Made by a program: the position numbers and the translations under genes. Of a stretch of DNA of 64,000 nucleotides, positions 1-63,749 are shown piece after piece. The stretch's first letter is position 1; each line of letters opens with the position of its first letter. The stretch comes from Escherichia phage SP27, in sequence record LC494302.1, one strand, 5' to 3'. The notes under the pieces are model-generated. The model worked only from the letters and a program-made list of their open reading frames with translations. It was not told the DNA's origin and did not search any database.

Positions 1-185
1 GTGAGTTGATGTGGCACACCCTATCAAAAAAAGAAGGGACATTACCAGTTGATGATAATGGGCCAGAAGCACTTGATCAGTACATGTTCATTGATGATAC
101 ATTTGGCATTGACTATTCTGCATATCAGTGTATACTAGCTATACACGAAAAATATTACGACCGTCTACGTGACAGATTAATTTAA
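1..185 (+). CDS. 3' end of an upstream gene, 5' truncated by the window edge; hypothetical protein
   Basis: Open frame from the window start (…ELMWHTLSKKEGTLPVDDNGPEALDQYMF…RDRLI) ending at TAA 183-185. Confidence 0.3.
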   Translation, partial: ELMWHTLSKKEGTLPVDDNGPEALDQYMFIDDTFGIDYSAYQCILAIHEKYYDRLRDRLI

Positions 186-196
186 TTGGAGGCATT

Positions 197-319
197 ATGA
201 TTGCTATGTTAGAAGAAGATTGGGGTGTTTCCGAGCAAGGCACTGATGAATATGAATACCCAGAATATAAGCCCAAAGGCTTATGGGAACGTTTGCGTGA
301 TTGGTTGATGGGGGAATAA
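197..319 (+). CDS. Small hypothetical protein (41 aa), not in the ORF track
   Basis: ATG 197 preceded by GGAGG; MIAMLEEDWGVSEQGTDEYEYPEYKPKGLWERLRDWLMGE; stop lies 1 nt before the next gene's ATG. Confidence 0.35.
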   Translation: MIAMLEEDWGVSEQGTDEYEYPEYKPKGLWERLRDWLMGE

Positions 320-320
320 T

Positions 321-1433
321 ATGAAAAAGTATTTGGTTGGTGGCTACGTCCGTGACCGTTTAATGGGTCTTCGTGCAAAAGACAAAGATTATGTCATTGT
401 CGGAGCAACTGAATCTGATATTAAGTACTTGCAAAGTATTGGCTATAAGCAAGTAGGTAAGGATTTCCCTGTATATCTAAGTCCAGAAGGTAATGAACAC
501 GCATTAGCCCGTACTGAGCGTAAAACTGGTACTGGATATGGTGGCTTTGAAGTGGATACAAAAGGCGTAACACTCGAACAAGATTTGTATCGCCGTGACC
601 TAACAATAAATGCAATTTCGTATGATCCAGTACTACAAATTCACATTGATCCATACGGTGGTAAAGCTGATATCAAGAACAAGGTACTACGTCATGTTTC
701 TGACCATTTTAAAGAAGATCCATTACGTGTGTTACGTCTTGCTCGATTTGCTACTCGTTATTCAGACTTTACTATCCATGAAAGCACTGAGGAACTAGCT
801 ATTGGAATGGTCAATAGTGGTGAGCTAAATCATCTTGTTCCTGACCGTGTTTTTGTGGAATTCGAAAAAGCATTTTCCGAAGAAAAGCCTGCAAAGTTCC
901 TTAAGACGCTAAGTAAATTTGGTTATTACGAAAAGGTGTTTAATACATCTTTGACCAAAAAGAATTTAGACCTTATTGATTATATTGCAGAGAACTGTAC
1001 GGATGTATATAAACCATATTTTCTGTGGTCTATTCTTCTTGAAAATGAAGAAGTAAATAATGATTCAGTACTTAACGGTGCTATTAAAGTTCCAGTTAAG
1101 TATGTTAAATTTAGTAATTATATCAAACGTTTCCGTGATGATATCAAAACATTCCGTAAAAAGACCCCTATTGAAATGGGTAATATTTTATTGGATATGA
1201 ATATTAAAAATAACGGAGGTGAAGAATTCCTTTATGAAGTTTTGGAATACTTCATTTTGCGAAAAGAAATTGATTTAGAACTTGAAGATCTAATTATTAA
1301 AGTTTATGATCGTTATACTGATGTTGAATTGCCTGATATTCAGCAAATGGTCAAAGATGGTGAACTTGAAACGTCAGAAATTCGTGATTTTGTTTGTGAA
1401 CTTCGTTACGAAGCAATCAAACAAATGTTCTAA
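321..1433 (+). CDS. cca: tRNA nucleotidyltransferase (CCA-adding enzyme) head/neck/body; no HD phosphohydrolase domain
   Basis: GGYVRD start motif, ARTERKTGTGYGGF, RRDLTINAI, EDPLRVLRLARFATRY; near-collinear with the N-terminal half of E. coli Cca as recalled; RBS before ATG 321. Confidence 0.85.
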   Translation: MKKYLVGGYVRDRLMGLRAKDKDYVIVGATESDIKYLQSIGYKQVGKDFPVYLSPEGNEHALARTERKTGTGYGGFEVDTKGVTLEQDLYRRDLTINAISYDPVLQIHIDPYGGKADIKNKVLRHVSDHFKEDPLRVLRLARFATRYSDFTIHESTEELAIGMVNSGELNHLVPDRVFVEFEKAFSEEKPAKFLKTLSKFGYYEKVFNTSLTKKNLDLIDYIAENCTDVYKPYFLWSILLENEEVNNDSVLNGAIKVPVKYVKFSNYIKRFRDDIKTFRKKTPIEMGNILLDMNIKNNGGEEFLYEVLEYFILRKEIDLELEDLIIKVYDRYTDVELPDIQQMVKDGELETSEIRDFVCELRYEAIKQMF

Positions 1434-1439
1434 AAAATA

Positions 1440-1470
1440 GTGGGACAAAAAACCAATAACTGATATAATT
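1440..1470 (+). promoter_or_regulatory. Sigma70-like promoter (GTGGGACA -35-like, 16-nt spacer, TATAAT)
   Basis: AGTGGGACAA…TGATATAAT; the same motif recurs at 20548-20577. Confidence 0.4.
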
Positions 1471-1510
1471 ATTAGTATCTGAACATCGATTGATGACAAA
1501 GAGATAAGAT

Positions 1511-1943
1511 ATGCGTTATAGTTGTGGTATAATATTTTATCGTGATGGTCAGATACTTATCGGACATACAACACGGACAGAATCATTGGGATTTACCTAA
1601 AGGGAAAGCTGAGGGTAATGAAACTTTCAAAGAAGCTGCTGTACGTGAATGTTTCGAAGAGACAGGATACGAAATCGATGAAGATGATCTTCTGTTTCTT
1701 GGTGATGTATCCTATAGAAAGGGAAAAAGGTTAGTACTTTTCTTTTATACTGCCAAAGACAAACCAATACCAGATGAATTAGTTTGTAAAAGTACTTACA
1801 CTAATAGATATGGTAAGAGTCATCCAGAATTGGATAAGTTCATGTACATTGATGTACGAGAATGTCAAAAGTATTTGACTGAACGAATGTGTAACAGTAT
1901 TATTAAAGCTGTTAAAGCTTTTCAAAGAAATAGAAGGAAATAA
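1511..1943 (+). CDS. NUDIX hydrolase interrupted by an apparent +1 frameshift at about 1583-1590 (pseudogene, programmed frameshift or sequencing indel)
   Basis: ATG 1511 with AAGAGA RBS encodes MRYSCGIIFYRDGQILIGHTTRTES (Nudix first strand) and stops at 1598-1600; the Nudix box GKAEGNETFKEAAVRECFEETGY is in the 1542-1943 frame. Confidence 0.6.
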
Positions 1944-1944
1944 C

Positions 1945-2193
1945 ATGAAAGTTAAAATTTATGGTCGCAAGACTGGTTGTAAATTTTGCGACACTGCAAA
2001 AGCTGTATGTGAACAAAATAAATTTGAAATGGAGTTTGTAGATATTGTTGCTGAAGGTATCGATGGTTCAAAACTGTCTGAAATTTGTGGTGAACCAGTT
2101 CGTCAAGTTCCTCAAATTTTCGTAAATGACATTTATGTACCAGGTGGTTGTACTGGGTTTATTGAAGGTCTTAAAGAAGGTCGTTGGAACTAA
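1945..2193 (+). CDS. Glutaredoxin-like protein (T4 NrdC-like)
   Basis: 82 aa with a CKFC redox motif near the N-terminus and a VPQIFV…GG C-terminal pattern. Confidence 0.6.
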   Translation: MKVKIYGRKTGCKFCDTAKAVCEQNKFEMEFVDIVAEGIDGSKLSEICGEPVRQVPQIFVNDIYVPGGCTGFIEGLKEGRWN

Positions 2194-2435
2194 TGGATAT
2201 TGAAAAAGTATCATCTCGTGCAAAACAACTAGCTGATACGTTGGGAGTAGAGTTCAAAATTCCTGATATTTCAATAGCTAAAGAAAAAGCCCAGATTAAA
2301 ATTAACAAGATGAAAGAATATCTATCTAAACAAGAACAGTATGATTCCGCTGTCGAATTTATTGTAAAATCTTTTAGTAAAGAGGATATTTTGGAATTTA
2401 TCAAATATGTGAAGGTTTCTGGCAACCCTAAATAA
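2193..2435 (+). CDS. Hypothetical protein (80 aa)
   Basis: ATG 2193 overlaps the upstream stop (TAATG); the track's earlier start is a TTG. Confidence 0.5.
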   Translation: MDIEKVSSRAKQLADTLGVEFKIPDISIAKEKAQIKINKMKEYLSKQEQYDSAVEFIVKSFSKEDILEFIKYVKVSGNPK

Positions 2436-2481
2436 ATGTGAAGAACAAAAAGTTCTTCTTAACAATTTGGGAGATACTATT

Positions 2482-2724
2482 ATGCTCAGTTTTCGTGAAC
2501 AATTAGCAAAAGGTCAATTTCAGGCTAAAGCTCAAACTAATATTCCTAAAAAATCTGCATTTTTAGGAACAATTACGGAAGATGGATTTTGTGATTATGA
2601 TGCACCAGAAGATTCATGGTACATTACAAAAGACACAAAACGCAGTAATAGACTTCACAAAAGTACAATAGCTAGAAAGCATCGAAAAGAATTAAAGAAA
2701 ATCCGTTTCGGTGAAGAAGAATAA
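2482..2724 (+). CDS. Hypothetical protein with a basic C-terminus (80 aa)
   Basis: ATG 2482 preceded by GGGAGA; the track start at 2467 is a TTG. Confidence 0.5.
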   Translation: MLSFREQLAKGQFQAKAQTNIPKKSAFLGTITEDGFCDYDAPEDSWYITKDTKRSNRLHKSTIARKHRKELKKIRFGEEE

Positions 2725-2732
2725 TTTAAAAT

Positions 2733-2765
2733 AAGGACTCTGACCACAGAGTCCTTTCTTTTCGG
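2733..2765 (+). terminator. Rho-independent terminator
   Basis: AAGGACTCTG-ACCAC-AGAGTCCTT hairpin followed by a T-rich tract. Confidence 0.55.
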
Positions 2766-2773
2766 AGAATATA

Positions 2774-3250
2774 ATGATTCATGAACACCGAGGTAATCTG
2801 TTTGAATTATTCAGTACTGTAACAGATGATAAAACAGCAATACATATAATTGCTCATGGTTGTAACGCACAGGGTAAAATGGGTTCAGGTTTTGCAAAAG
2901 AGCTAAGAAATCGTTACCCAATGGCATATGATGATTATAAAGCATATGAAAAGGAAATGGGATTTCTTAGAATTGGACAAATTGCATATTCAGCAATTAA
3001 CGATAATTTGATTATTGCAAACTGTATTACCCAAAAAATGTACGGTAATGACGGTGCTAAATATGTCAGTTATGATGCAATCGACGATGTGTTCAAACAT
3101 CTAAATTATTTTTGTAAAGTTGATCGAGATGTTCATGTACACTTCCCGAAAATTGGAGCCGATTTGGGCGGCGGTAACTGGAACGTTATCAAAGAAATCA
3201 TTGATCACCGACTGGTCAATGCAGAAAAACACTTATACATTCTAAAATAA
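2774..3250 (+). CDS. Macrodomain protein of the DarG/TARG1 (OARD1) type; ADP-ribose hydrolase-like
   Basis: IAHGCNAQGKMGSGFAKEL and HFPKIGADLGGGNWNVI match the HCISxDxxMGAGIA / PRIGCGLD pattern of TARG1/DarG macrodomains, from memory. Confidence 0.65.
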   Translation: MIHEHRGNLFELFSTVTDDKTAIHIIAHGCNAQGKMGSGFAKELRNRYPMAYDDYKAYEKEMGFLRIGQIAYSAINDNLIIANCITQKMYGNDGAKYVSYDAIDDVFKHLNYFCKVDRDVHVHFPKIGADLGGGNWNVIKEIIDHRLVNAEKHLYILK

Positions 3251-3269
3251 ACAAAAGGACTTGACAAAA

Positions 3270-3578
3270 ATGACTATGACCGTTAAACTACTAAACATCA
3301 ATAACATTGGCCCAGTACTAGCAGTTCTTCAAACCGATTCTGCTGAAGCTGTTGTAGTTAACTACCCAGCACAACTAGGGACTGACGAAAATGGTGAAAT
3401 CATTCTTCGTGATTATCTAGAGTTTGTTAGTATGGAGAAAAATGTTATTTTTTATAAATCCAACATTATTAGTGTTAGTGATGCAAACCCTGCATTAGTT
3501 GATGCTTATGTTGATGCTATTAAAGCAATCGAAAACACTCCAAAAGTTTTCGTTCCTGAGAATAAAATCATTCTATAA
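3270..3578 (+). CDS. Hypothetical protein (103 aa)
   Basis: ATG 3270 after AAAGGAC; the track start at 3261 is a TTG. Confidence 0.5.
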   Translation: MTMTVKLLNINNIGPVLAVLQTDSAEAVVVNYPAQLGTDENGEIILRDYLEFVSMEKNVIFYKSNIISVSDANPALVDAYVDAIKAIENTPKVFVPENKIIL

Positions 3579-3590
3579 TAGAGGTATATA

Positions 3591-3968
3591 ATGGCTGCTA
3601 ATGACGTTAAAGTAAAAACTATCCAAGCTATCGTAGTACTGAAAGATTCTACACCATCCCCTAAAGAATTAGTAATGGCTGGGATGACTATGTTACATCA
3701 ATACAACCCTGAATCACCTAACTATGTTCAAGAATACGAAGCTAAGAAGTTTAAAGAACATTGGCAGTCATGGATTAAAGATAATGAAATGGAGCAGGTA
3801 GTTTATGCTGCTGATGACATTTTCGAACTGGAACAAATTGAATATCTAGCTGGTCAGCAATCAGTACCATTGAGCATTTTCGGTAATGGTGAAGAAGTTC
3901 TGGTATTGGGACCATTCACTGCTGATGATATCATTCACTTACTGAGTAATTGTAAGAAAATTGAATAA
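3591..3968 (+). CDS. Hypothetical protein; weak resemblance to the PTH2 peptidyl-tRNA hydrolase fold
   Basis: ATG 3591 after AGAGGTA; C-terminal EEVLVLGPFTADDIIHLL resembles the PTH2 TVLGIGPGPADLID segment, by eye only. Confidence 0.5.
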   Translation: MAANDVKVKTIQAIVVLKDSTPSPKELVMAGMTMLHQYNPESPNYVQEYEAKKFKEHWQSWIKDNEMEQVVYAADDIFELEQIEYLAGQQSVPLSIFGNGEEVLVLGPFTADDIIHLLSNCKKIE

Positions 3969-4184
3969 AAATTCGAAACTATCAGGTTACCGTAACAACA
4001 CGTTGAAGTACAATGATATTAAGTACTGGGTTGATCCTTACTTAAATAAATCATTGTTAATGTACAGAGATAAATCACGAGATCTATATGGAATATATGT
4101 TACTCAGTTAATATATATAATAGATTCCGAACATTTTACTCCATTGGTATACCTGTACTGCTTGTATAATTCAAAATAACTATT

Positions 4185-4230
4185 AGCACCTCTAAATAAT
4201 GTATATAAACATTAATGAGGTGCTTTTTTA
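4185..4230 (+). terminator. Rho-independent terminator (long imperfect hairpin plus T6)
   Basis: AGCACCTC…GAGGTGCT stem with an inner AATGT/ACATT stem, followed by TTTTTT. Confidence 0.45.
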
Positions 4231-5021
4231 TGTCTTACGATTATATGGGTGGAAACCCTGATGCTCCTAACTTTGACCATCGTGAAAAACTGAAAGATGT
4301 TATCACTCAAATGTTGGGTGCTGGGGCCGTTGAGGTAGAAATTACTGATGGTCAATTAGAAATTGCAATTGATAATGCGGTATCGAATTACAGAGCGTGG
4401 AGTTCTGCTTCTAAAGAAGAAGCATTTTTAAATATGAAATTTTATGATTCACAATCTGTATATATGCTACCAACTGAAGTTGAAATTGTTAAAAAGATTT
4501 ATCGTTATGGTAATGGTTACTTAAGTTCTGGTAGTGGGAACTCAGTAGATCCGTTTTCTCTAGCATTCACCAACACTTACTTATTGACTTCAGCACGAAA
4601 TGCAGGTGGATATGATCTAACTACATATGATTTTAGTTTTCAGTTCCAAGAACTGGTAGGTCGTATGTTTGGTCGTGATATTATATTTCAATTTAACCCA
4701 ATGACCAAAAAATTAATTATAGATCGTGATATTCGCGGTACTGAAGAAGTACTATTACACGTATATCATAATATTCCTGAACCATTGTTGTTTCAAAGAC
4801 AGCAAAGTTATCCTTGGCTACGTGATTGGGCATTGTCTGAAGCCATGATTATGTTGGGTCGTAACCGTGCCAAATTTGCTTCTCTTCCAGGTCCACAGGG
4901 AACGTTTTCTATGGATGGTGATACATTACGTAATGAAGGATTACAACTTCAGGAACAGCTTAAAGAGCGTTTGAAACGTTATCAAGATGGTGCTGAACCA
5001 CTAGGTATGATTATTGGATAA
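4230..5021 (+). CDS. Hypothetical protein, possibly virion-associated (neck-like?)
   Basis: Second in-frame ATG chosen because the first (4215) lies inside the terminator hairpin; MSYDYMGGNPDAPNF…. Confidence 0.5.
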   Translation: MSYDYMGGNPDAPNFDHREKLKDVITQMLGAGAVEVEITDGQLEIAIDNAVSNYRAWSSASKEEAFLNMKFYDSQSVYMLPTEVEIVKKIYRYGNGYLSSGSGNSVDPFSLAFTNTYLLTSARNAGGYDLTTYDFSFQFQELVGRMFGRDIIFQFNPMTKKLIIDRDIRGTEEVLLHVYHNIPEPLLFQRQQSYPWLRDWALSEAMIMLGRNRAKFASLPGPQGTFSMDGDTLRNEGLQLQEQLKERLKRYQDGAEPLGMIIG

Positions 5022-5025
5022 ATTA

Positions 5026-5053
5026 AAAAAGACTCCTATATGGAGTCTTTTTC
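5026..5053 (+). terminator. Rho-independent terminator
   Basis: AAAGACTCC-TATAT-GGAGTCTTT hairpin then TTT. Confidence 0.5.
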
Positions 5054-5071
5054 ACATTATGTGATATAATG
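5036..5071 (+). promoter_or_regulatory. Early-type promoter with extended -10 (ATGTGATATAAT)
   Basis: TCACAT-T-ATGTGATATAAT about 27 nt upstream of ATG 5098; weak -35. Confidence 0.4.
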
Positions 5072-5097
5072 ATAATATTAATCTTAAGGAACCTAAC

Positions 5098-5367
5098 ATG
5101 AATAACAACATAGATGCAATGTATAACAAATATAGTTGTGGTGCACCTACATTAGATTATGAGTCAACAGAAAAATTCTGGAAATTTTTAAAAGAATCAA
5201 TCGTTGATGTTTTCGGTAGAGAACGAATAAACGCGTGGGCGAGTATATGTCGTGATGATAATGGAGAAACATTCTACATCACTTATGTTACTATATATTA
5301 TGGGAGCGAGTTTATAGTTCAATTACTTGAATGTTTAGTAGGAAAGGATTTAGTGGTACTTATATAA
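5098..5367 (+). CDS. Hypothetical early protein (89 aa)
   Basis: ATG 5098 after AAGGAA; directly downstream of the promoter-like element. Confidence 0.5.
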   Translation: MNNNIDAMYNKYSCGAPTLDYESTEKFWKFLKESIVDVFGRERINAWASICRDDNGETFYITYVTIYYGSEFIVQLLECLVGKDLVVLI

Positions 5368-5385
5368 TATACATGGAGAAGTATT

Positions 5386-6012
5386 ATGGAAAGACAAATA
5401 ATTGCAATTAACGGTACTATTGGAAGTGGTAAAGATACTTTTGGAGAAACTTTTATTAATAATGGTTACACCAGAATGTCATTTGCAACTAATCTTAAAG
5501 ATTCTGTTGCTGCTATTTTTGGATGGGATCGTGAAATGCTTGAAGGTTCAACTAAGGAAAGTCGTAAGATTCGTGAAGAACCGGACCAGTACTGGTGTGA
5601 TAAGTTAGGTCGTAATGATGTATCCCCTCGATGGGTATTGCAGAATTATGGTACTAATATTTTGCGTAAGTATTTTCATAATGATATTTGGGTATTCAGT
5701 TTAGAAAAATCAATGCAAGACATAGATGGAAATATCATCATCACTGATTGCCGTTTTCCAAATGAATTAAAAATGATTAGATCGAATAATGGGACTATTA
5801 TTGAAGTTCAACGTGTTCTACCACATTGGTATGGTTTGGCGGCCTCTTATAATAAAGGGGATATTAATATTAAACCAGTTGAACTAGAATCAGTACACGA
5901 ATCTGAGTGGGCTTGGATTGGCATAAACAATCCTGATATAATTGTACAGAATAACAGTACTATTGATGATTTACATAAAAAAGCAATGGACATTATTTAT
6001 TCTAATACATAA
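5386..6012 (+). CDS. Deoxynucleoside monophosphate kinase (T4 gp1-like)
   Basis: P-loop GTIGSGKDT and ITDCRFPNELKMIRSNNGTIIEVQR, resembling the T4 gp1 DTRQ…ATVIHVVR region from memory. Confidence 0.7.
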   Translation: MERQIIAINGTIGSGKDTFGETFINNGYTRMSFATNLKDSVAAIFGWDREMLEGSTKESRKIREEPDQYWCDKLGRNDVSPRWVLQNYGTNILRKYFHNDIWVFSLEKSMQDIDGNIIITDCRFPNELKMIRSNNGTIIEVQRVLPHWYGLAASYNKGDINIKPVELESVHESEWAWIGINNPDIIVQNNSTIDDLHKKAMDIIYSNT

Positions 6013-6106
6013 ATTATAAACAATAAGGACTGGACAATTAAATCCTTCAATAAATAAGACTATACGAATATATTTCGAATAACCAATTATTTTTGGAGGA
6101 TTTAAT

Positions 6107-8770
6107 ATGGCAGGAGATCTACTCTCACCTGGCGTTTCCATTTCAGTAACTGATGAAAGTATGAGTACCGCTGCTGCTCCTGGCACTGTACCACTATTTG
6201 TAATCGCTACTGCTGAAGACAAACTTGTCCCAGGAAGCAGTGCAATTGCTGCGGGAACTACTAAAGCAAACGCTGGAAAACTACAGCTTCTAACATCACA
6301 AAAAAGCTCACTTGATACCTATGGTACACCAATTTTTCAAATGAATAACGGTTCTGTTGTTCAAGGTGATGAACTAAACGAATATGGCCTACATGCAGTA
6401 TATTCTTATCTAGGCATTACTAACCGTGCATATGTAATTCGTGCTGATATCGATCTAGCACAACTAGCACCAAGTGCTGAAGCACCAACTGGCCCAGTAT
6501 CCAATGGTACTTTGTGGTTTGATACCGCACAATCACAAGTAGAAGCGTATGTAGCGAAGAAAGATAGTCCAAGCAGTTTTTATGATTGGCAACTTAAGCC
6601 AGTAACTATTGTAAGTGCTGAAGAAGTTGAAGATGTAAGTCTAGTAGGTTTAAATGTTGATGATTTAGTTCTACGTTACAAACCAAGCAATGGTCAGATG
6701 CTAATGTATAAACGTTCTGCTTCTGGGCTAGTGCAAATGGAAACTTATCTATCACCAATTAACAAAGTTCCAGTTGGCTCAACTGTAGAAAAAGGTAACA
6801 TTTGGATTCGTGATGGTTACACCCAAAATGGTTCAAACTATTTTGGTACTCGTTTTGTTATTAAACGTTATGCATCCCTAACTCAAGTTTGGAATATTGT
6901 ACCAGCATATACTGGTAATTCATTCCAAGAAATTGAAGCGAAAAGTGGTGTACTAAACAATAGTTATATCGCATCTCGTTTTGATGAAGATAGTAAGAGT
7001 TTCTCTTTCTATATTCAAAGTGCAAAACTAACAACAATTAGTGCTCCTGCTTTGCCACTTGGTGAAACTATTATTGAACAAGCAGGTGCTGATAGTTATA
7101 TGACTTTTGTTTATTTGAATAAATCAGTTAAAGTACTAGCAGTTCCACAAGGCGGTGTTATTAATACCCAAACTATCATCAATAATCTAAATGCAAATGT
7201 TGAAATTATTAACGATGGTTTTAAATTTAAACGTGAAACTAATGGTGGTTTAGTTGTTTCCAATACAAAAGGTTACAGTTTCAAAATCACACAAAGTGGT
7301 GATGATATTTTTGCTGAATCTGAACTACAAAAACTAACAGTAGATAGTAACAACTACTCTCTAATTAACGTGAATAACTTCCGTGTTAGTTATTCAGTAC
7401 CACGTAGTGTAGCAAAAGAAGGAACTCTCTGGTATGATTTCGGGAACTCCGATAATCTAACTGTAACTATGTATGTTGCTGATGTTGCTAATGATGAATG
7501 GGATCTAGTACAAGAAGAAAACAAATATGTACAAGTTGATGAACCAGCGGCTGACCGTTTAATTTGGGTTTGTCCTTTATCCCAAGGCATTGATGGTTAT
7601 GATTTCTATCGTAACGTTGATGGTGAATGGGTTAAACTTGACAGTACTGATCAAAGTACACTAAATGGTATGATTTTCCAAGACTTTAATTTCCCAAGCC
7701 AAGTTCCTGCTGCGGCATTGTATCAAAATGGTATGCTTGCAGTTGACCTAGGTAACACTGAAGGTGTTGTTAAGAAAATGGTTAATGGTCAATGGGAAGT
7801 TGTTAGTGGTGTAAGTCTTGATGGTGCTGGCCTATTTGGTCGTGCTGCACAACGTCAACTAGTAGTTGAAGCACTAGCTGCTGTTATTATTGGTAATGAT
7901 GACATTCGTTCTGAATTTATTGATTTTAACCTAATTTGTGTACCTGGTTACGTTGAAACACTTGATGAATGTGTAACTTTAAACACTGATCGTAAAGAAA
8001 CTGCATTTATTGTTACTGACGTTCCAGCACGTTTGAATCCAACTGGAAACGGTAGTGCTGTACAACAATGGGCTACTAATGCTAACAATGCACCAAGCAA
8101 CGGTTCAGTTGGTCGTACAACTGCTTATGATTATGCTGCTCAGTATATGGGTTGGTGTCTAAGTACTAACGTTGATGGTGAAGAAGTTGCAGTTCCTGGT
8201 AGTACTATTGCAATGCGTACATATGCATACAGTGATAGTGTTAGTTATGTATGGTATCCACCTGCTGGTACAACTCGTGGTGTTGTAACAAACGCTGCAA
8301 GTACTGGTTTTATCAACAGCGAAGGTGAATATCAACCAGTAGTATACAACCAAGGTCAACGTGACGTTATGTATACTAACAACATTAACCCAATTGCAAT
8401 GCGTCCTAACCGTGGTTTGCTTGTTTATGGAGATAAAACTCTATCTGCTAATCAAACTTCTGCACTAAGTCGTGTTAACGTTGCTCGTTTAGTTGTTTAT
8501 ATTCGTCGTCAACTAGAAATTATTTCCGAACCATTCCTATTCCGTTTGAATACTCCAAGTACTCGTCAGGAATTTAGTGGTGTAGTTAATAGCTTCTTGG
8601 CTGAAATTGTTCAACAACAGGGTCTTTATAACTTCGCAGTGGTTTGTGATGAAAGTAACAACACCGCAGAGCGTATTGACCGTAATGAACTTTGGATGGA
8701 TATTGCAATTCAACCAACTAAGAGTATTAACTTCATTTACGTACCAATCCGTATCGAGAAAACTCAATAA
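6107..8770 (+). CDS. Contractile tail sheath protein (T4 gp18 family, extended to 887 aa)
   Basis: C-terminus VARLVVYIRRQLE…FAVVCDESNNTAERIDRNELWMDIAIQPTKSINFIYV parallels the recalled T4 gp18 RVVCDTTNNTPSVIDRNEF…IQPARSINYI. Confidence 0.9.
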   Translation: MAGDLLSPGVSISVTDESMSTAAAPGTVPLFVIATAEDKLVPGSSAIAAGTTKANAGKLQLLTSQKSSLDTYGTPIFQMNNGSVVQGDELNEYGLHAVYSYLGITNRAYVIRADIDLAQLAPSAEAPTGPVSNGTLWFDTAQSQVEAYVAKKDSPSSFYDWQLKPVTIVSAEEVEDVSLVGLNVDDLVLRYKPSNGQMLMYKRSASGLVQMETYLSPINKVPVGSTVEKGNIWIRDGYTQNGSNYFGTRFVIKRYASLTQVWNIVPAYTGNSFQEIEAKSGVLNNSYIASRFDEDSKSFSFYIQSAKLTTISAPALPLGETIIEQAGADSYMTFVYLNKSVKVLAVPQGGVINTQTIINNLNANVEIINDGFKFKRETNGGLVVSNTKGYSFKITQSGDDIFAESELQKLTVDSNNYSLINVNNFRVSYSVPRSVAKEGTLWYDFGNSDNLTVTMYVADVANDEWDLVQEENKYVQVDEPAADRLIWVCPLSQGIDGYDFYRNVDGEWVKLDSTDQSTLNGMIFQDFNFPSQVPAAALYQNGMLAVDLGNTEGVVKKMVNGQWEVVSGVSLDGAGLFGRAAQRQLVVEALAAVIIGNDDIRSEFIDFNLICVPGYVETLDECVTLNTDRKETAFIVTDVPARLNPTGNGSAVQQWATNANNAPSNGSVGRTTAYDYAAQYMGWCLSTNVDGEEVAVPGSTIAMRTYAYSDSVSYVWYPPAGTTRGVVTNAASTGFINSEGEYQPVVYNQGQRDVMYTNNINPIAMRPNRGLLVYGDKTLSANQTSALSRVNVARLVVYIRRQLEIISEPFLFRLNTPSTRQEFSGVVNSFLAEIVQQQGLYNFAVVCDESNNTAERIDRNELWMDIAIQPTKSINFIYVPIRIEKTQ

Positions 8771-8776
8771 AACACT

Positions 8777-8806
8777 AAGGGAACCTTTTGGTTCCCTTTT
8801 TTATTG
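8777..8806 (+). terminator. Rho-independent terminator after the sheath gene
   Basis: AGGGAACC-TTTT-GGTTCCCT followed by TTTTTTATT. Confidence 0.6.
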
Positions 8807-8849
8807 ATTAAAATTAAATACCTTTATATTGATGTTATAAAGGAACATT

Positions 8850-8975
8850 ATGGATATGGAAGAAATACTAAAAAAAACAATACAAGATGTCAGTAAAATA
8901 GTTTTAACTCAGTTGGAATCAGTACACATACTAAATATATTTTTAAAAAATTTGGAAGATTGTCGGTATAATTGA
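8850..8975 (+). CDS. Possible small ORF (41 aa) in the sheath-tube intergenic region
   Basis: ATG 8850 after AAAGGAAC; MDMEEILKKTIQDVSKIVLTQLESVHILNIFLKNLEDCRYN; below the ORF-track cutoff. Confidence 0.2.
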   Translation: MDMEEILKKTIQDVSKIVLTQLESVHILNIFLKNLEDCRYN

Positions 8976-9165
8976 AAAATACGAAGTATACACAAATGGA
9001 AAATGGTCTATATCAGTAAACTATATTGACCACACTAAACGAAAAAGATACTTATATTGTGTTAATATTAATTGGTTCCCTGTTGATGACACTTTAGTTA
9101 ATTAAAAATATACTTCCAGATAGATAAATAATATAAAGATGTCATTCCATAATAGGAGAATATAA

Positions 9166-9852
9166 ATGGCTACAATGCTTGATCGATATGGCGTACCGCT
9201 CGCTGGCGGTGGTCGTATCTCTATGAAACAACCAAAAGCAAAATACAAATTTCGTGTTATTTTCTTTGGTTTTGGTACTAATGATGATGGTAATATGATT
9301 ACACTAGACACCAATACAGTTGGGGCAGTATCTGTATCACATGAAAATGTTACTGTTCATAGTTACAACAGTTCTGCACACTATAAAGGTAAGTACACTT
9401 GGGATACAATTGATGTTGCTTTCCGTGACTCAGTAGGTAATGCTTCTGCTAAAGCACTATACAACCAAATGCGTAAAGAATTCAACTACTACAGTCAAGA
9501 ATCTCGCATGACAGATTCACAATTTAAATTTGAAATGTGGATTCAAGAGCTTGATGGTTCTAATAGTGAAAATACAACAAACTTGTTTGAAGGAACATTG
9601 AGTACTTGGGTATGTCAAGGTTGCTTTATTGAATCCAGCAACTTTGGTGATTGGGATTATTCCTCAAGTGAAGCACAAGTTATTTCAATGACTGTTCAAC
9701 CAGATGGTTGTGCTAAATTGGGTCCAAATGGCGAAGCGTTCGGTGATGAAGTTAGTGGCTTCGGTAATCCATCAACTGCTACCTCTATTTCTGGTGCACA
9801 AACTAATATTAGTAGTACTACTCTACCAGATAGTAACTTCTACGAAAATTAA
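9166..9852 (+). CDS. Tail tube protein (paralog 1)
   Basis: Directly downstream of the sheath gene; YGVPLAGGGRISMKQPKAKYKFRVIFFGFG is shared with the next gene. Confidence 0.55.
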   Translation: MATMLDRYGVPLAGGGRISMKQPKAKYKFRVIFFGFGTNDDGNMITLDTNTVGAVSVSHENVTVHSYNSSAHYKGKYTWDTIDVAFRDSVGNASAKALYNQMRKEFNYYSQESRMTDSQFKFEMWIQELDGSNSENTTNLFEGTLSTWVCQGCFIESSNFGDWDYSSSEAQVISMTVQPDGCAKLGPNGEAFGDEVSGFGNPSTATSISGAQTNISSTTLPDSNFYEN

Positions 9853-20547: not shown

Positions 20548-20577
20548 GTGGGACAACTTATAAAAATATGATATAAT
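20548..20577 (+). promoter_or_regulatory. Sigma70-like promoter (GTGGGACA-16-TATAAT), second copy of the motif at 1440
   Basis: AAGTGGGACAACTTATAAAAATATGATATAAT. Confidence 0.4.
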
Positions 20578-63434: not shown

Positions 63435-63749
63435 TTAGCCTATGTTTCGAGTACCATTAAGATAATTCTGTACTCTTTGATTTGCTGGTATTCTAATTGT
63501 TACTCCACTTTTAAAATTATATATAGGATCTTCTCCTAGTATGTCTGGATTTAACAATGCGAAAATATAATATAAGCGTTCATTACCATACATTTCGTAT
63601 GCTAAACGCCAAGGTTGATATTCATATTTCAATGGGATCTCATAAAAATCATCAGTATCAGCCGGAACAATATCACGTGGTAAAGTATACCCAAGATACC
63701 ATGTTTGTTTCACCTTAGCGTAAGGTGAGTATTGACTATAGTTGGACAT
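63435..63749 (-). CDS. Small baseplate protein with a gpX-like LysM-type motif
   Basis: WRLAYEMYGNERLYYIFALLNPDILGEDPIYNFKSGVTIRIP resembles the P2 gpX pattern; RBS AAAGGAGG. Confidence 0.5.
   Translation of the reverse strand: MSNYSQYSPYAKVKQTWYLGYTLPRDIVPADTDDFYEIPLKYEYQPWRLAYEMYGNERLYYIFALLNPDILGEDPIYNFKSGVTIRIPANQRVQNYLNGTRNIG

What the first reader, a model, noticed from the sequence alone, without database searches (positions are those of the whole stretch)
1..6012. Early/accessory island enriched in candidate counter-defence and nucleotide-handling genes
Within 6 kb, separated by terminators and sigma70-like promoters, lie the CCA enzyme, a NUDIX, a glutaredoxin, a DarG-like macrodomain, a PTH2-like candidate, several 80-105-aa unknowns and a dNMP kinase. 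This mix (tRNA repair, ADP-ribose and nucleotide-diphosphate hydrolysis) is what is expected of an anti-defence island, and the small unknown ORFs are candidates for uncharacterised inhibitors.
Basis: inference. Interest (0 to 1): 0.5.

Follow-up and report, generated by a model that had tools for sequence, protein, structure and literature searches.

The report
Conserved auxiliary gene block, jumbo coliphage
The first 6 kb of the window is a known gene block of the giant RaK2/121Q-like coliphages, holding tRNA, ADP-ribose and nucleotide enzymes beside the neck and tail-sheath genes; it is conserved across the whole phage clade rather than being a variable anti-defence island, so it is largely ordinary.

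Summary
The window is an Asteriusvirus jumbo coliphage, 99.5% identical to phAPEC6. The 'early/accessory anti-defence island' reading is only partly supported. The same genes in the same order occur in about 70 RaK2-like phage records from at least five genera. The 'unknown' ORFs o80b, o102 and the Pth2-like gene are present in 69-70 of these records, so they are clade-core genes. A late structural neck gene, detected in phAPEC6 virions, sits inside the block. Only o72 and the fast-evolving o89 behave as accessory genes. o102 has an Sm/LSm-like fold. The Pth2-like protein lacks the catalytic loop. The macrodomain keeps the catalytic Asn/Gln/Gly of SCO6735, an enzyme that reverses DarT. A conserved non-late promoter and two conserved terminators are real. 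Neck and sheath each carry a T4-late-like motif inside a hairpin that sequesters the ribosome-binding site. By-product: the Nudix gene is split by a conserved 1-nt insertion at the phage's rarest codon (CGG), a candidate +1 programmed frameshift.

The parts
6..319 (+). Two small ORFs: the tail of a gp289-like ORF at 6-185, and o40 at 197-319, which is translationally coupled to CCA
   Evidence: Annotated in 121Q and phAPEC6. Conserved only within part of Asteriusvirus, so accessory.
321..1433 (+). Class II tRNA nucleotidyltransferase (CCA-adding type) with no HD phosphohydrolase domain
   Evidence: PF01743 and PF12627. phrog_2244 4e-116. NCBIfam CCA equivalogs match only residues 1-207 and score below their cutoffs. 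59-97% identical in all relatives.
1441..1469 (+). Conserved sigma-70-like promoter TGGGACA-N13-TGATATAAT in front of the Nudix operon; a conserved GTATCTGA follows at 1475-1482
   Evidence: The same architecture is present in all genera. The orthologous CBB site is listed as Porf_193. The motif occurs 3 times in the window against 0.5 expected. It scored 10/12 with a TG extension in the promoter scan.
1511..1943 (+). NudE-like Nudix hydrolase gene in two frames: 1511-1573 in frame 0, then 1575-1943 in frame +1
   Evidence: PF00293. 35-40% identity to T4-type NudE. Relatives outside the E. coli Asteriusvirus group have a single ORF.
1568..1580 (+). Candidate +1 frameshift site ACA ACA C|GG ACA G
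   Evidence: Identical in 9 Asteriusvirus loci. Upstream variable sites fall 1/0/6 by frame-0 codon position. CGG is the rarest codon, 1 in 19,515.
1945..2193 (+). GrxA-like glutaredoxin with a CKFC active site
   Evidence: PF00462. NF008401 1e-18, below the curated cutoff. Fused in frame to the Nudix gene in EJP2.
2193..2435 (+). o80, a helical protein of unknown function
   Evidence: phrog_34640. 30-45% identical in most other genera, though no hit was found in GAP32.
2440..2458 (+). Conserved hairpin between o80 and o80b, without a T-run
   Evidence: The arms differ between genera in a complementary way (GAAGAAC/GTTCTTC against GAAGGAA/TTCCTTC). Fold z-score is only -1.5.
2482..2724 (+). 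o80b, a small protein with a basic C-terminus; the most conserved small ORF
   Evidence: 68-72% identical across genera and present in 70 records. Only 8 clusters in 1.84 billion representatives. No PDB or Pfam match.
2733..2765 (+). Intrinsic terminator between o80b and the macrodomain gene
   Evidence: 10-bp stem followed by a T-run. z-score -4.1. Conserved in all genera with compensatory stem changes.
2774..3250 (+). Stand-alone ALC1/TARG1-class macrodomain of the SCO6735/BT1257 subtype
   Evidence: N31, Q87 and G132-134 are invariant and align with identical residues of SCO6735.
3270..3578 (+). o102, an Sm/LSm-like fold protein
3591..3968 (+). Pth2-fold protein lacking the canonical catalytic loop
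3961..4179 (+). o72, a small accessory ORF with a TTG start
   Evidence: Present in the PBECO4, Turkey3, UE-S1 and A4 types; absent in Turkey5 and in the other genera. Variable sites fall 19/10/31 by codon position.
4185..4224 (+). Hairpin that sequesters the neck gene's Shine-Dalgarno sequence: arms 4185-4192 and 4217-4224, with the late-like motif TCTAAATA at 4191-4198 at its 5' edge
   Evidence: -17 kcal/mol, z-score -5.05. Invariant in Asteriusvirus and Alcyoneusvirus. The arms co-vary with the Shine-Dalgarno sequence in other genera.
4230..5021 (+). Neck protein (T4 gp13/gp14-like head-tail adaptor), a late structural gene
   Evidence: phrog_211 1e-41. phAPEC6 gp280 was found in virions by mass spectrometry.
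5025..5052 (+). Intrinsic terminator after the neck gene
   Evidence: -14.7 kcal/mol, z-score -5.98. Terminator hairpins occupy the same position in other genera.
5060..5070 (+). Extended -10 promoter-like element TGTGATATAAT in front of o89 and the dNMP kinase gene
   Evidence: Conserved in Turkey3 and Turkey5. Overlaps promoter-scan hits at 5051-5079.
5098..5367 (+). o89, a fast-evolving accessory ORF in a variable slot
   Evidence: 73% identical to the 121Q copy while neighbouring genes are 97-100%; 36% to Turkey5. The slot holds an unrelated ORF, a homing endonuclease or nothing in other genera.
5386..6012 (+). dNMP kinase (T4 gp1 / T5 type)
   Evidence: PF21448 1e-11. The neck-kinase-sheath order is kept in PA5oct at 37% identity.
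6040..6103 (+). Hairpin that sequesters the tail-sheath Shine-Dalgarno sequence, with the late-like motif AATAAATA at 6049-6056. The sheath gene at 6107-8770 follows.
   Evidence: -21 kcal/mol, z-score -5.94. The same arrangement is present in all genera.

Best explanation
Positions 1-6012 are a clade-conserved block of auxiliary genes of a RaK2/121Q-like (Asteriusvirus) jumbo myovirus. The block abuts the late neck and tail-sheath genes and interleaves with them. It is not a variable anti-defence island.

Proposed working (inferred unless marked shown). CCA is read together with the small ORFs upstream of it. A conserved sigma-70-like promoter at 1441-1469 drives Nudix, Grx, o80 and o80b. A conserved terminator at 2733-2765 attenuates transcription. 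Read-through then expresses the macrodomain, the Sm-like protein and the Pth2-fold protein. Transcripts that run on into the neck gene are translationally silent, because the neck Shine-Dalgarno sequence is paired in a hairpin. A T4-late-type promoter placed at the 5' edge of that hairpin would give late mRNAs that lack the 5' arm and can be translated. The same device precedes the sheath gene, after the terminator/promoter pair that brackets o89 and the dNMP kinase gene.

Proposed enzyme roles. The nucleotidyltransferase rebuilds tRNA 3' ends. The NudE-like Nudix hydrolyses ADP-ribose, NAD and NAD-capped RNA. The SCO6735-type macrodomain removes ADP-ribose from DNA, and possibly from protein or RNA. 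The glutaredoxin and the dNMP kinase feed dNTP synthesis.

These are fixed core functions of the clade. Some of them, the macrodomain above all, may well serve counter-defence. The only genes here that behave as arms-race accessories are o89 and o72.
For: Identity and synteny (shown). The region is 99.5% identical to phAPEC6 and CRJP21, and 33 records cover at least 80% at nucleotide level. 69 records cover at least 80% of the concatenated proteins in one place, down to 55-63% identity. The gene tables of Muenster, GAP32, fHe-Yen9-04, Munch, XbC2 and EJP2 show the same order, as does the identity matrix. o80b, o102 and the Pth2-like gene are found in 70, 69 and 70 records, against 70 records with a neck homologue of at least 60% identity.

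Structural and late genes. Neck and sheath are the only proteins of the block found in phAPEC6 virions. The late-like motif lies upstream of 6 of 12 genes from neck onward, but of only 1 of 30 non-structural genes upstream.

Hairpins. Fold z-scores are -5.05 and -5.94. For the neck hairpin, 86% of cells are paired against 39-56% in slid controls, and 3 pairs change on both sides.

Promoter and terminators are conserved across genera.

Enzyme assignments. Literature: SCO6735 reverses DarT (PMC9411070). T4 NudE.1 hydrolyses NAD and NAD-RNA in vitro (bioRxiv 10.1101/2024.04.04.588121).
Against: There are no transcript, protein or phenotype data for this clade; a literature search found no RNA-seq. 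The timing and the hairpin mechanism are inferred from sequence and from the T4 precedent (own knowledge: gene e, soc, gene 49). Conservation across a clade does not exclude a counter-defence role. The macrodomain's nearest characterised relative does neutralise DarT. Four conserved ORFs (o80, o80b, the Sm-like and the Pth2-like) have no assigned activity. The Nudix gene needs recoding to be functional. The 70 records include duplicate RefSeq/GenBank copies.
Confidence: 0.7

Rival explanations
1. One reading: the block is an early anti-defence island. Its enzymes counter tRNA-cleaving, ADP-ribosylating and NAD/nucleotide-signalling defences, and its small ORFs are uncharacterised inhibitors.
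For: The macrodomain matches the DarG models and keeps the catalytic residues of the DarT-reversing enzyme SCO6735 (PMC9411070). A phage macrodomain, AdfM, counters DarTG2 (PMC13309987). Iyer et al. proposed such roles for jumbo-phage Macro, Nudix and CCA enzymes. The promoter is of a non-late class and these proteins are absent from virions. o89 is hypervariable and sits in a slot with gene turnover.
Against: The block shows almost no presence/absence variation across about 70 records from at least 5 genera and 9 host genera. It contains a late structural gene, and a dNMP kinase that is linked to neck and sheath even in PA5oct. o102 has an Sm-like fold that is widespread in large myoviruses. 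The Pth2-like protein lacks the catalytic loop. No small ORF matches anything in the defence-related libraries.
Confidence: 0.17
2. A purely housekeeping module. The genes only support translation and nucleotide supply for a 350-kb genome: phage tRNA maturation, RNR reduction, dNTP synthesis and removal of ADP-ribose by-products. They have no role in conflict with host immunity, and their co-location is inherited gene order.
For: A ribosome hibernation factor (HPF/RaiA) and a lysozyme lie just upstream in all genera, and a YqeY-like gene is inserted in Mimasvirus and Eneladusvirus. The phages carry their own tRNAs and other translation factors. The Grx is GrxA-like. Order is strictly conserved. 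T4 has counterparts, NudE.1, Tk.4, NrdC and gp1, that are auxiliary genes.
Against: The macrodomain subtype is one shown to act on DarT-modified DNA. E. coli already has Cca, Pth and Grx, so duplicating them suggests a need that arises during conflict. The Pth2-fold protein cannot be a canonical hydrolase.
Confidence: 0.13

Closest known systems
The homologous annotated block in Asteriusvirus phages phAPEC6 (gp278-gp287), 121Q (gp539-gp550) and PBECO4
   Same: 97-99.5% nucleotide identity with the same genes in the same order. Neck and sheath were identified in virions.
   Different: Nothing of substance; the window is a member of this genus. The deposited annotations miss the Nudix frameshift, and most call the small ORFs hypothetical.
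T4 auxiliary genes (NudE.1, macrodomain Tk.4, NrdC/Grx, gp1 dNMP kinase beside structural genes) and T4 late-gene control by hairpins that sequester the ribosome-binding site (gene e, soc, gene 49; own knowledge)
   Same: The Nudix is 35-40% identical to the T4-type NudE. GAP32 annotators linked the macrodomain to Tk.4. A dNMP kinase is embedded among morphogenesis genes. A TATAAATA-like motif sits inside a hairpin that pairs the Shine-Dalgarno sequence.
   Different: In T4 these genes are scattered; here they form one syntenic block with CCA, an Sm-like gene and a Pth2-like gene. The late motif is C/A-TAAATA. No transcript mapping exists for this clade.
SCO6735/BT1257, DarG, TARG1 and phage AdfM macrodomains (ALC1-like class)
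   Same: Profile E-values are 2e-21 (BT1257), 1e-14 (SCO6735) and 1e-4 (DarG). Asn, Gln and Gly-Gly are invariant where SCO6735 has N27, Q85 and G128 (PMC9411070).
   Different: The catalytic Lys of DarG and TARG1 is absent (Gln instead). There is no DarT-binding C-terminal domain and no adjacent DarT. The protein is not orthologous to the chimallivirus AdfM. Its activity is untested.
Archaeal/eukaryotic peptidyl-tRNA hydrolase Pth2 (PF01981) and the Atu0240-type Pth2-like proteins
   Different: A 9-residue deletion removes the D-x-G-x-T...PGT loop. The position I take, from memory of Pth2, to be its N-terminal catalytic Lys is Lys/Arg in most homologues but Ala in EJP2; this correspondence was not tested by any alignment here. 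The window protein gets no Pfam hit.
Phage anti-defence islands, such as anti-CRISPR/anti-defence loci and variable regions of T-even phages (own knowledge)
   Same: A cluster of small non-structural genes, a non-late promoter, and one enzyme class with proven counter-defence members.
   Different: Such islands are defined by rapid gene turnover between close relatives. Here turnover is confined to o72, o89 and the ORFs upstream of CCA.
Programmed +1 ribosomal frameshifting at a slow codon (prfB CUU UGA C; yeast Ty1/Ty3; tandem rare Arg codons; own knowledge)
   Same: Two overlapping frames are each under purifying selection. The site is invariant, and its zero-frame A-site codon is the rarest codon in the phage.
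   Different: The P-site ACA cannot re-pair in the +1 frame, so the site is Ty3-like rather than prfB-like. No evident Shine-Dalgarno-like stimulator is present. The product has not been observed.

Membership tests
Anti-defence island (variable accessory locus) | Presence/absence turnover of genes between close relatives | tested here: not met
   The same 11 genes in the same order occur in 69-70 records. Only o72, o89 and the ORFs upstream of CCA vary.
Anti-defence island (variable accessory locus) | Contains a homologue of an experimentally proven anti-defence gene | tested here: inconclusive
   The macrodomain is of the class of SCO6735, DarG and AdfM (PMC9411070, PMC13309987), but it is not an orthologue of AdfM. 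Nothing was found for the small ORFs.
Anti-defence island (variable accessory locus) | Early expression | tested here: inconclusive
   A conserved sigma-70-like promoter and the absence of the late motif point to pre-late expression. No transcript data exist.
DarG antitoxin | Macrodomain of the ALC1/TARG1 class | tested here: met
   PADLOC DarG 1.4e-10, NCBIfam DarG 3.9e-8, PDB 5m31 1e-4.
DarG antitoxin | Catalytic lysine (K80 of T. aquaticus DarG) | tested here: not met
   An invariant Gln87 occupies the position of SCO6735 Gln85, which the authors equate with DarG K80 (PMC9411070).
DarG antitoxin | C-terminal DarT-binding domain and an adjacent darT gene | tested here: not met
   The protein is 158 aa and matches only positions 16-136 of the 329-position model. 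The neighbouring genes are o80b and the Sm-like gene.
SCO6735/BT1257-type macrodomain hydrolase | Sequence membership, plus the Asn, Gln and Gly that mutagenesis showed to be required | tested here: met
   E-values 2e-21 and 1e-14. Identical N, Q and GG appear in the match line and are invariant in 8 phage homologues.
SCO6735/BT1257-type macrodomain hydrolase | Hydrolysis of thymidine-linked ADP-ribose / rescue from DarT | not testable with these tools
   Needs an enzyme assay or a toxicity-rescue assay.
Peptidyl-tRNA hydrolase 2 (PF01981) | Pth2 alpha/beta fold | tested here: met
Peptidyl-tRNA hydrolase 2 (PF01981) | Conserved catalytic D-x-G-x-T...PGT loop | tested here: not met
   A 9-residue gap lies opposite this loop in alignments to 2zv3, 1wn2 and 1rlk. 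The aligned residues vary between homologues.
Peptidyl-tRNA hydrolase 2 (PF01981) | Pfam model above threshold | tested here: not met
   The window protein has no PF01981 hit at E <= 0.1. Three of 36 homologues have precomputed hits.
Class II CCA-adding enzyme | Pol-beta head domain and adjacent RNA-binding domain | tested here: met
   PF01743 3e-18 and PF12627 4e-8.
Class II CCA-adding enzyme | Equivalog-level match / HD domain of the 'multifunctional' E. coli Cca | tested here: not met
   272.6 bits against a cutoff of 451, with the match confined to residues 1-207. No HD-domain hit.
Class II CCA-adding enzyme | CCA-adding specificity, as opposed to A-adding or poly(A) | not testable with these tools
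   Needs biochemistry.
Nudix hydrolase (T4 NudE.1-like) | Nudix box GX5EX7REUXEEXGU | tested here: met
   GKAEGNETFKEAAVRECFEETGY is present in the translation. PF00293 1e-12.
Nudix hydrolase (T4 NudE.1-like) | Uninterrupted ORF that encodes the N-terminal strands of the fold | tested here: not met
   A 1-nt insertion after codon 21 is present in all 9 E. coli Asteriusvirus loci.
Sm/LSm/Hfq-like proteins | Sm-type bent beta-barrel fold | tested here: met
Sm/LSm/Hfq-like proteins | Ring oligomer and RNA binding | not tested
   No multimer prediction or assay was run.
T4-type late promoter inside a hairpin that sequesters the ribosome-binding site | TATAAATA-like motif, hairpin pairing the Shine-Dalgarno sequence, and conservation or covariation | tested here: met
   
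T4-type late promoter inside a hairpin that sequesters the ribosome-binding site | Late transcription start inside the hairpin | not testable with these tools
   Needs 5'-end mapping.
Programmed +1 ribosomal frameshift | Both frames under purifying selection, with an invariant shift site at a slow codon | tested here: met
   Variable sites fall 1/0/6 upstream (frame 0) and 22/13/76 downstream (frame +1). CGG occurs once in 19,515 codons. The site is identical in 9 loci.
Programmed +1 ribosomal frameshift | Trans-frame protein product | not testable with these tools
   Needs mass spectrometry or a reporter assay.

The most novel reading that the evidence does not exclude
The NudE-like Nudix gene of the E. 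coli Asteriusvirus phages is expressed through a conserved programmed +1 ribosomal frameshift at ACA-CGG-A (1571-1577). The zero-frame A-site codon CGG is the rarest codon in the phage, so synthesis of the full 143-aa enzyme would depend on a pause at a tRNA-Arg(CCG)-limited codon. That could act as a translational dosage control or tRNA sensor inside an RNA/ADP-ribose operon.

A second, weaker reading: the Sm-like protein encoded two genes upstream of the neck gene may be a phage-made substitute for host Hfq, which T4 borrows as a transient second genome gate on the gp13/gp14 neck (PMC12929587).
Probability: 0.4. Interest if true: 0.55.

Novelty: already known. Interest (0 to 1): 0.3.

Why it matters
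The block as such adds little. It is annotated in dozens of genomes, and its possible counter-defence and RNA-repair roles were proposed in 2021.

Its value is practical, because it shows where to look:
- o89 and o72 are the accessory, fast-evolving ORFs worth screening against defence systems. The conserved small ORFs are not.
- The macrodomain is a concrete, testable anti-DarT2 candidate of the Gln-type (SCO6735) mechanism.
- The Pth2-like annotation should not be read as a hydrolase.
- The conserved Nudix frameshift and the late-gene control by ribosome-binding-site-sequestering hairpins give testable examples of recoding and T4-style temporal control in a poorly studied jumbo-phage clade.

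Tried and rejected
- Rfam scan of 1-6200: only a sub-threshold GcvB match, E 0.93.
- tRNA scan of the whole window: no tRNA genes.
- Apparent 'deletions' in Salmonella phages SD-1/2/6/15 and in CMSTMSU were considered as natural knock-outs and rejected. In these records even the tail-sheath and CCA genes are fragmented, and CMSTMSU is marked UNVERIFIED, so they are error-laden assemblies.
- PA5oct EST35_0189 as an o80b homologue: rejected, hhalign probability 7%.
- Sm-like, Pth2-like, macrodomain or o80b genes near the neck gene of PA5oct or Atu_ph07: none found with profile HMMs. The Sm-like/neck adjacency is therefore not conserved beyond the clade, which lowers the Hfq-substitute idea.
- Distant relatives of o102 in viral contigs: only RaK2-like loci were returned.
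- o80b against 1.84 billion representatives: 8 hits, two of which (P0117 and P0119) are long internally repetitive proteins that I judged spurious by eye. The profile gave no PDB hit.
- Global sigma-70 promoter count: at chance level, so only promoters conserved across genera were accepted.
- Literature search for transcriptomes of this clade: nothing relevant.
- The fEgEco12 and Sharanji papers add nothing on this block beyond listing CCA and HPF as translation factors.

Full report
WHAT THE SEQUENCE IS. The window has 32-41% G+C. Positions 1-6100 are 99.5% identical to Escherichia phages vB_EcoM_phAPEC6 and CRJP21, and 97% identical to 121Q. 33 phage records cover at least 80% of the stretch at nucleotide level. 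It is therefore part of an Asteriusvirus, a RaK2-like jumbo myovirus of about 350 kb. The deposited annotations of 121Q and phAPEC6 list the same genes at the same places.

CHECK OF THE OBSERVATION.
- 321-1433 is a class II tRNA nucleotidyltransferase (PF01743, PF12627, phrog_2244).
- 1542-1943 is a Nudix hydrolase (PF00293).
- 1945-2193 is a GrxA-like glutaredoxin.
- 2774-3250 is a macrodomain.
- 3591-3968 is the 'PTH2-like candidate'.
- 5386-6012 is a dNMP kinase (PF21448).
- The small unknown ORFs lie at 2193-2435 (o80), 2482-2724 (o80b), 3270-3578 (o102) and 5098-5367 (o89).

Its phAPEC6 orthologue gp280 was found in virions by mass spectrometry, together with the sheath protein gp277. None of gp278-279 or gp281-287 appears in that list (PMC7247149).

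As a whole, sigma-70-like matches are at chance level: 35 found against 36.6 +/- 6.0 expected. Some individual signals are nevertheless real, as shown below.

IS IT AN ACCESSORY ISLAND? I concatenated the twelve proteins and searched all phage records with tblastn. 69 records carry at least 80% of the concatenate in one place. They come from Asteriusvirus, Alcyoneusvirus (RaK2, K64-1, Muenster), Mimasvirus (GAP32, CBB, XbC2), Eneladusvirus (fHe-Yen9-04, Serratia BF, Erwinia phages), the Munch/7t3 group and EJP2, and identity goes down to 55-63%.

Gene tables of six distant members show the same order: lysozyme, HPF/RaiA, a few small ORFs, CCA, Nudix, Grx, o80, o80b, macrodomain, o102, Pth2-like, neck, a variable slot, dNMP kinase, sheath. 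The local identity matrix agrees.

Taken singly, o80b, o102 and the Pth2-like gene are found in 70, 69 and 70 records and in no other phage. The neck protein has exactly 70 records at 60% identity or more. Some of these records are duplicate RefSeq/GenBank copies. These three 'unknowns' are therefore clade-core genes. o80b is 68-72% identical across genera, about as conserved as the sheath protein.

Real variation is limited to four places:
- the ORFs upstream of CCA;
- an insertion of a YqeY-like gene plus one ORF after Grx in Mimasvirus and Eneladusvirus;
- o72 (3961-4179), present in only part of Asteriusvirus, with third-position-biased substitutions of 19/10/31;
- the slot between neck and dNMP kinase.

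That slot holds o89 in Asteriusvirus. It holds an unrelated ORF in Mimasvirus and Eneladusvirus, a 660-aa homing-endonuclease-like gene in Alcyoneusvirus and UE-S1, and nothing in Munch and EJP2. o89 is also by far the fastest-evolving gene. It is 73% identical to its 121Q copy, where the neighbouring genes are 97-100% identical, and 36% identical to the Turkey5 copy.

The apparent deletions in the Salmonella SD-* records and in CMSTMSU are assembly errors, because even the sheath gene is fragmented there.

In the distant phage PA5oct only the trio neck, dNMP-kinase homologue and sheath is kept. The kinase homologue is listed there as a protein detected in virions.

WHAT THE INDIVIDUAL PROTEINS ARE.

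Macrodomain. A profile of eight homologues hits BT1257 (2fg1, 2e-21), SCO6735 (5e3b, 1e-14), yeast-type ADP-ribose-1''-phosphatase (6lfu, 5e-10), DarG (5m31, 1e-4) and, weakly, TARG1. The PADLOC and NCBIfam DarG models match the macro part only. N31, Q87 and G132-134 are invariant in the phage family and are identical in the SCO6735 alignment. In SCO6735 the residues Asn27, Gln85 (in place of the DarG/TARG1 lysine) and Gly128 are required. That enzyme removes DarT-made thymidine ADP-ribose and rescues E. coli from DarT (PMC9411070). 'DarG-like' is thus right at class level. The protein is nevertheless not a DarG: it has no catalytic Lys, no DarT-binding domain and no darT neighbour. A different phage macrodomain, chimallivirus AdfM, is a proven anti-DarT2 factor (PMC13309987).

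CCA enzyme. It matches the CCA equivalog models only over residues 1-207, scores below their cutoffs, and has no HD domain. The label 'multifunctional CCA protein' therefore overstates what is known.

Nudix. It is 35-40% identical to the T4-type NudE. T4 NudE.1 hydrolyses ADP-ribose, NAD and NAD-capped RNA in vitro (bioRxiv 10.1101/2024.04.04.588121).

o80, o80b, o72 and o89. These remain without any assignment.

TRANSCRIPTION SIGNALS.

The CCA-Nudix spacer carries TGGGACA-N13-TGATATAAT at 1441-1469. The same architecture (TGAAACG, TGGAACG or TGGGACA, then about 13 nt, then TGnTATAnT, followed by GTATCTGA) is present in every genus. In CBB the authors listed the orthologous site as Porf_193. 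They assigned it to a promoter class found mostly upstream of DNA-synthesis genes and of the gp55-like gene. The motif occurs 3 times in the window against 0.5 expected.

The terminators after o80b (2733-2765) and after neck (5025-5052) fold with z-scores of -4.1 and -6.0. They are present in all genera, with different but complementary stems. An extended -10 element at 5060-5070 follows the second terminator in Asteriusvirus.

In front of both structural genes the Shine-Dalgarno sequence is paired in a hairpin. For neck the arms are 4185-4192 and 4217-4224 (-17 kcal/mol, z -5.05). For sheath the region is 6040-6103 (-21 kcal/mol, z -5.94). The 46 nt upstream of the neck start codon are invariant between Asteriusvirus and Alcyoneusvirus, while the flanks diverge. 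In other genera the Shine-Dalgarno sequence differs and the 5' arm changes with it. 86% of cells are paired against 39-56% in slid controls, and three pairs change on both sides.

A T4-late-like motif (TCTAAATA for neck, AATAAATA for sheath) sits at the 5' edge of each hairpin. In the 121Q locus this motif is found within 65 nt upstream of 6 of the 12 genes from neck onward, but of only 1 of 30 non-structural genes upstream. This is the arrangement known from T4 genes e, soc and 49 (own knowledge). There, read-through early transcripts are not translated, and late transcripts that start inside the hairpin are.

I infer that the non-structural genes are transcribed before the late phase and that neck and sheath are late. 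No transcript data exist for this clade.

A BY-PRODUCT: THE NUDIX GENE IS SPLIT. Outside the E. coli Asteriusvirus group the gene is one ORF (...GHTTGQxHWDLPKGK...). In the window and in all nine E. coli Asteriusvirus loci examined, one extra base gives ACA ACA C GG ACA. The first 21 codons (from ATG 1511) are then in frame 0 and the rest (1575-1943) is in frame +1.

Among lineages that differ by up to about 20% in protein sequence, the seven variable sites upstream fall 1/0/6 by frame-0 codon position. All of them would be non-synonymous in the annotated frame. Downstream the 111 variable sites fall 22/13/76 in frame +1. Both pieces are therefore under purifying selection in their own frame. 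The zero-frame codon at the junction, CGG, is the rarest codon in the phage: 1 in 19,515.

This fits a programmed +1 frameshift at a slow codon. The P-site codon cannot re-pair in the new frame, no stimulator is evident, and the product has not been seen.

VERDICT. The block is nevertheless a fixed, clade-wide module that includes late structural and nucleotide-supply genes. It is not a variable island, and most of its 'unknown' ORFs are core genes.

The idea that jumbo-phage Macro, Nudix and CCA enzymes serve NAD/ADP-ribose conflicts and RNA repair is already in the literature (PMC7824862). The NAD-salvage genes of these phages lie elsewhere in the genome (CBB_113 and CBB_115).

The finding is already known and of modest interest. 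The most useful leads are o89 and o72 as true accessory genes, the Gln-type macrodomain as an anti-DarT2 candidate, and the conserved Nudix frameshift.

Noticed in passing
window 1511-1943 (site 1568-1580): The Nudix gene is split by a 1-nt insertion that is conserved in all 9 E. coli Asteriusvirus loci. Both frames are under purifying selection, and the junction codon CGG is the rarest codon in the phage (1 in 19,515). This is a candidate programmed +1 frameshift. The deposited annotations start the CDS at 1545, which is probably wrong.
   Followed up: yes
window 4185-4224 and 6040-6103: Hairpins pair the Shine-Dalgarno sequences of the neck and sheath genes, and a T4-late-like motif sits at the 5' edge of each. 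They are conserved, and for neck co-varying, across genera. The arrangement resembles T4 gene e/soc/49 control.
   Followed up: yes
window 5098-5367: o89 is the fastest-evolving gene of the block: 73% identical to the 121Q copy, where neighbouring genes are 97-100%. Its slot holds an unrelated ORF, a homing endonuclease or nothing in other genera.
   Followed up: partly
window 3961-4179: An indel of about 200 bp carries a 72-codon TTG-start ORF. It is present in most Asteriusvirus lineages but absent in Turkey5 and in other genera. Its substitution pattern suggests that it is coding.
   Followed up: partly
L009 (EJP2) 4174-4851: In EJP2 the Nudix and glutaredoxin genes form one uninterrupted 225-codon ORF. 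This is either a possible fusion, which would hint at a functional link, or a lost stop codon.
   Followed up: partly
L011 (UE-S1) 5736-7730; L004 (Muenster) 7539-9542: A roughly 660-aa endonuclease-like gene is inserted between neck and the next gene in some lineages: DUF7487 in UE-S1, and annotated as endonuclease-domain protein in Muenster.
   Followed up: no
L016 (PA5oct) 8740-9381: The PA5oct homologue of the dNMP kinase (37% identical, in the same position between neck and sheath) is annotated as a structural protein detected by ESI-MS/MS. This raises the question of whether the kinase is packaged.
   Followed up: no
window 2440-2458: A hairpin between o80 and o80b is conserved in all genera with complementary arm changes, but it has no T-run. 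It may be a processing or stability element rather than a terminator.
   Followed up: no
L005 (GAP32) 4876-5635; L006 4868-5621: Mimasvirus and Eneladusvirus carry an extra YqeY-like gene, annotated 'tRNA amidotransferase', plus one ORF after Grx. This adds to the translation-related flavour of the block. HPF/RaiA lies just upstream in all genera.
   Followed up: partly
window 20549-20577 and 63684-63712 (-): Two further copies of the TGRRACR-N13-TGNTATANT promoter motif occur elsewhere in the window.
   Followed up: no
L010 (SD-1_S14), L012 (CMSTMSU): These public records have many frameshifted or fragmented genes, including the tail sheath. They should not be used as evidence of gene loss.
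   Followed up: partly
L001 (121Q) upstream of 6446: The LysM/lysozyme gene upstream of the window also has 11 of 12 Shine-Dalgarno-region bases paired in the predicted fold (-17.5 kcal/mol). This is reminiscent of T4 gene e, although my late-motif pattern did not match there.
   Followed up: no
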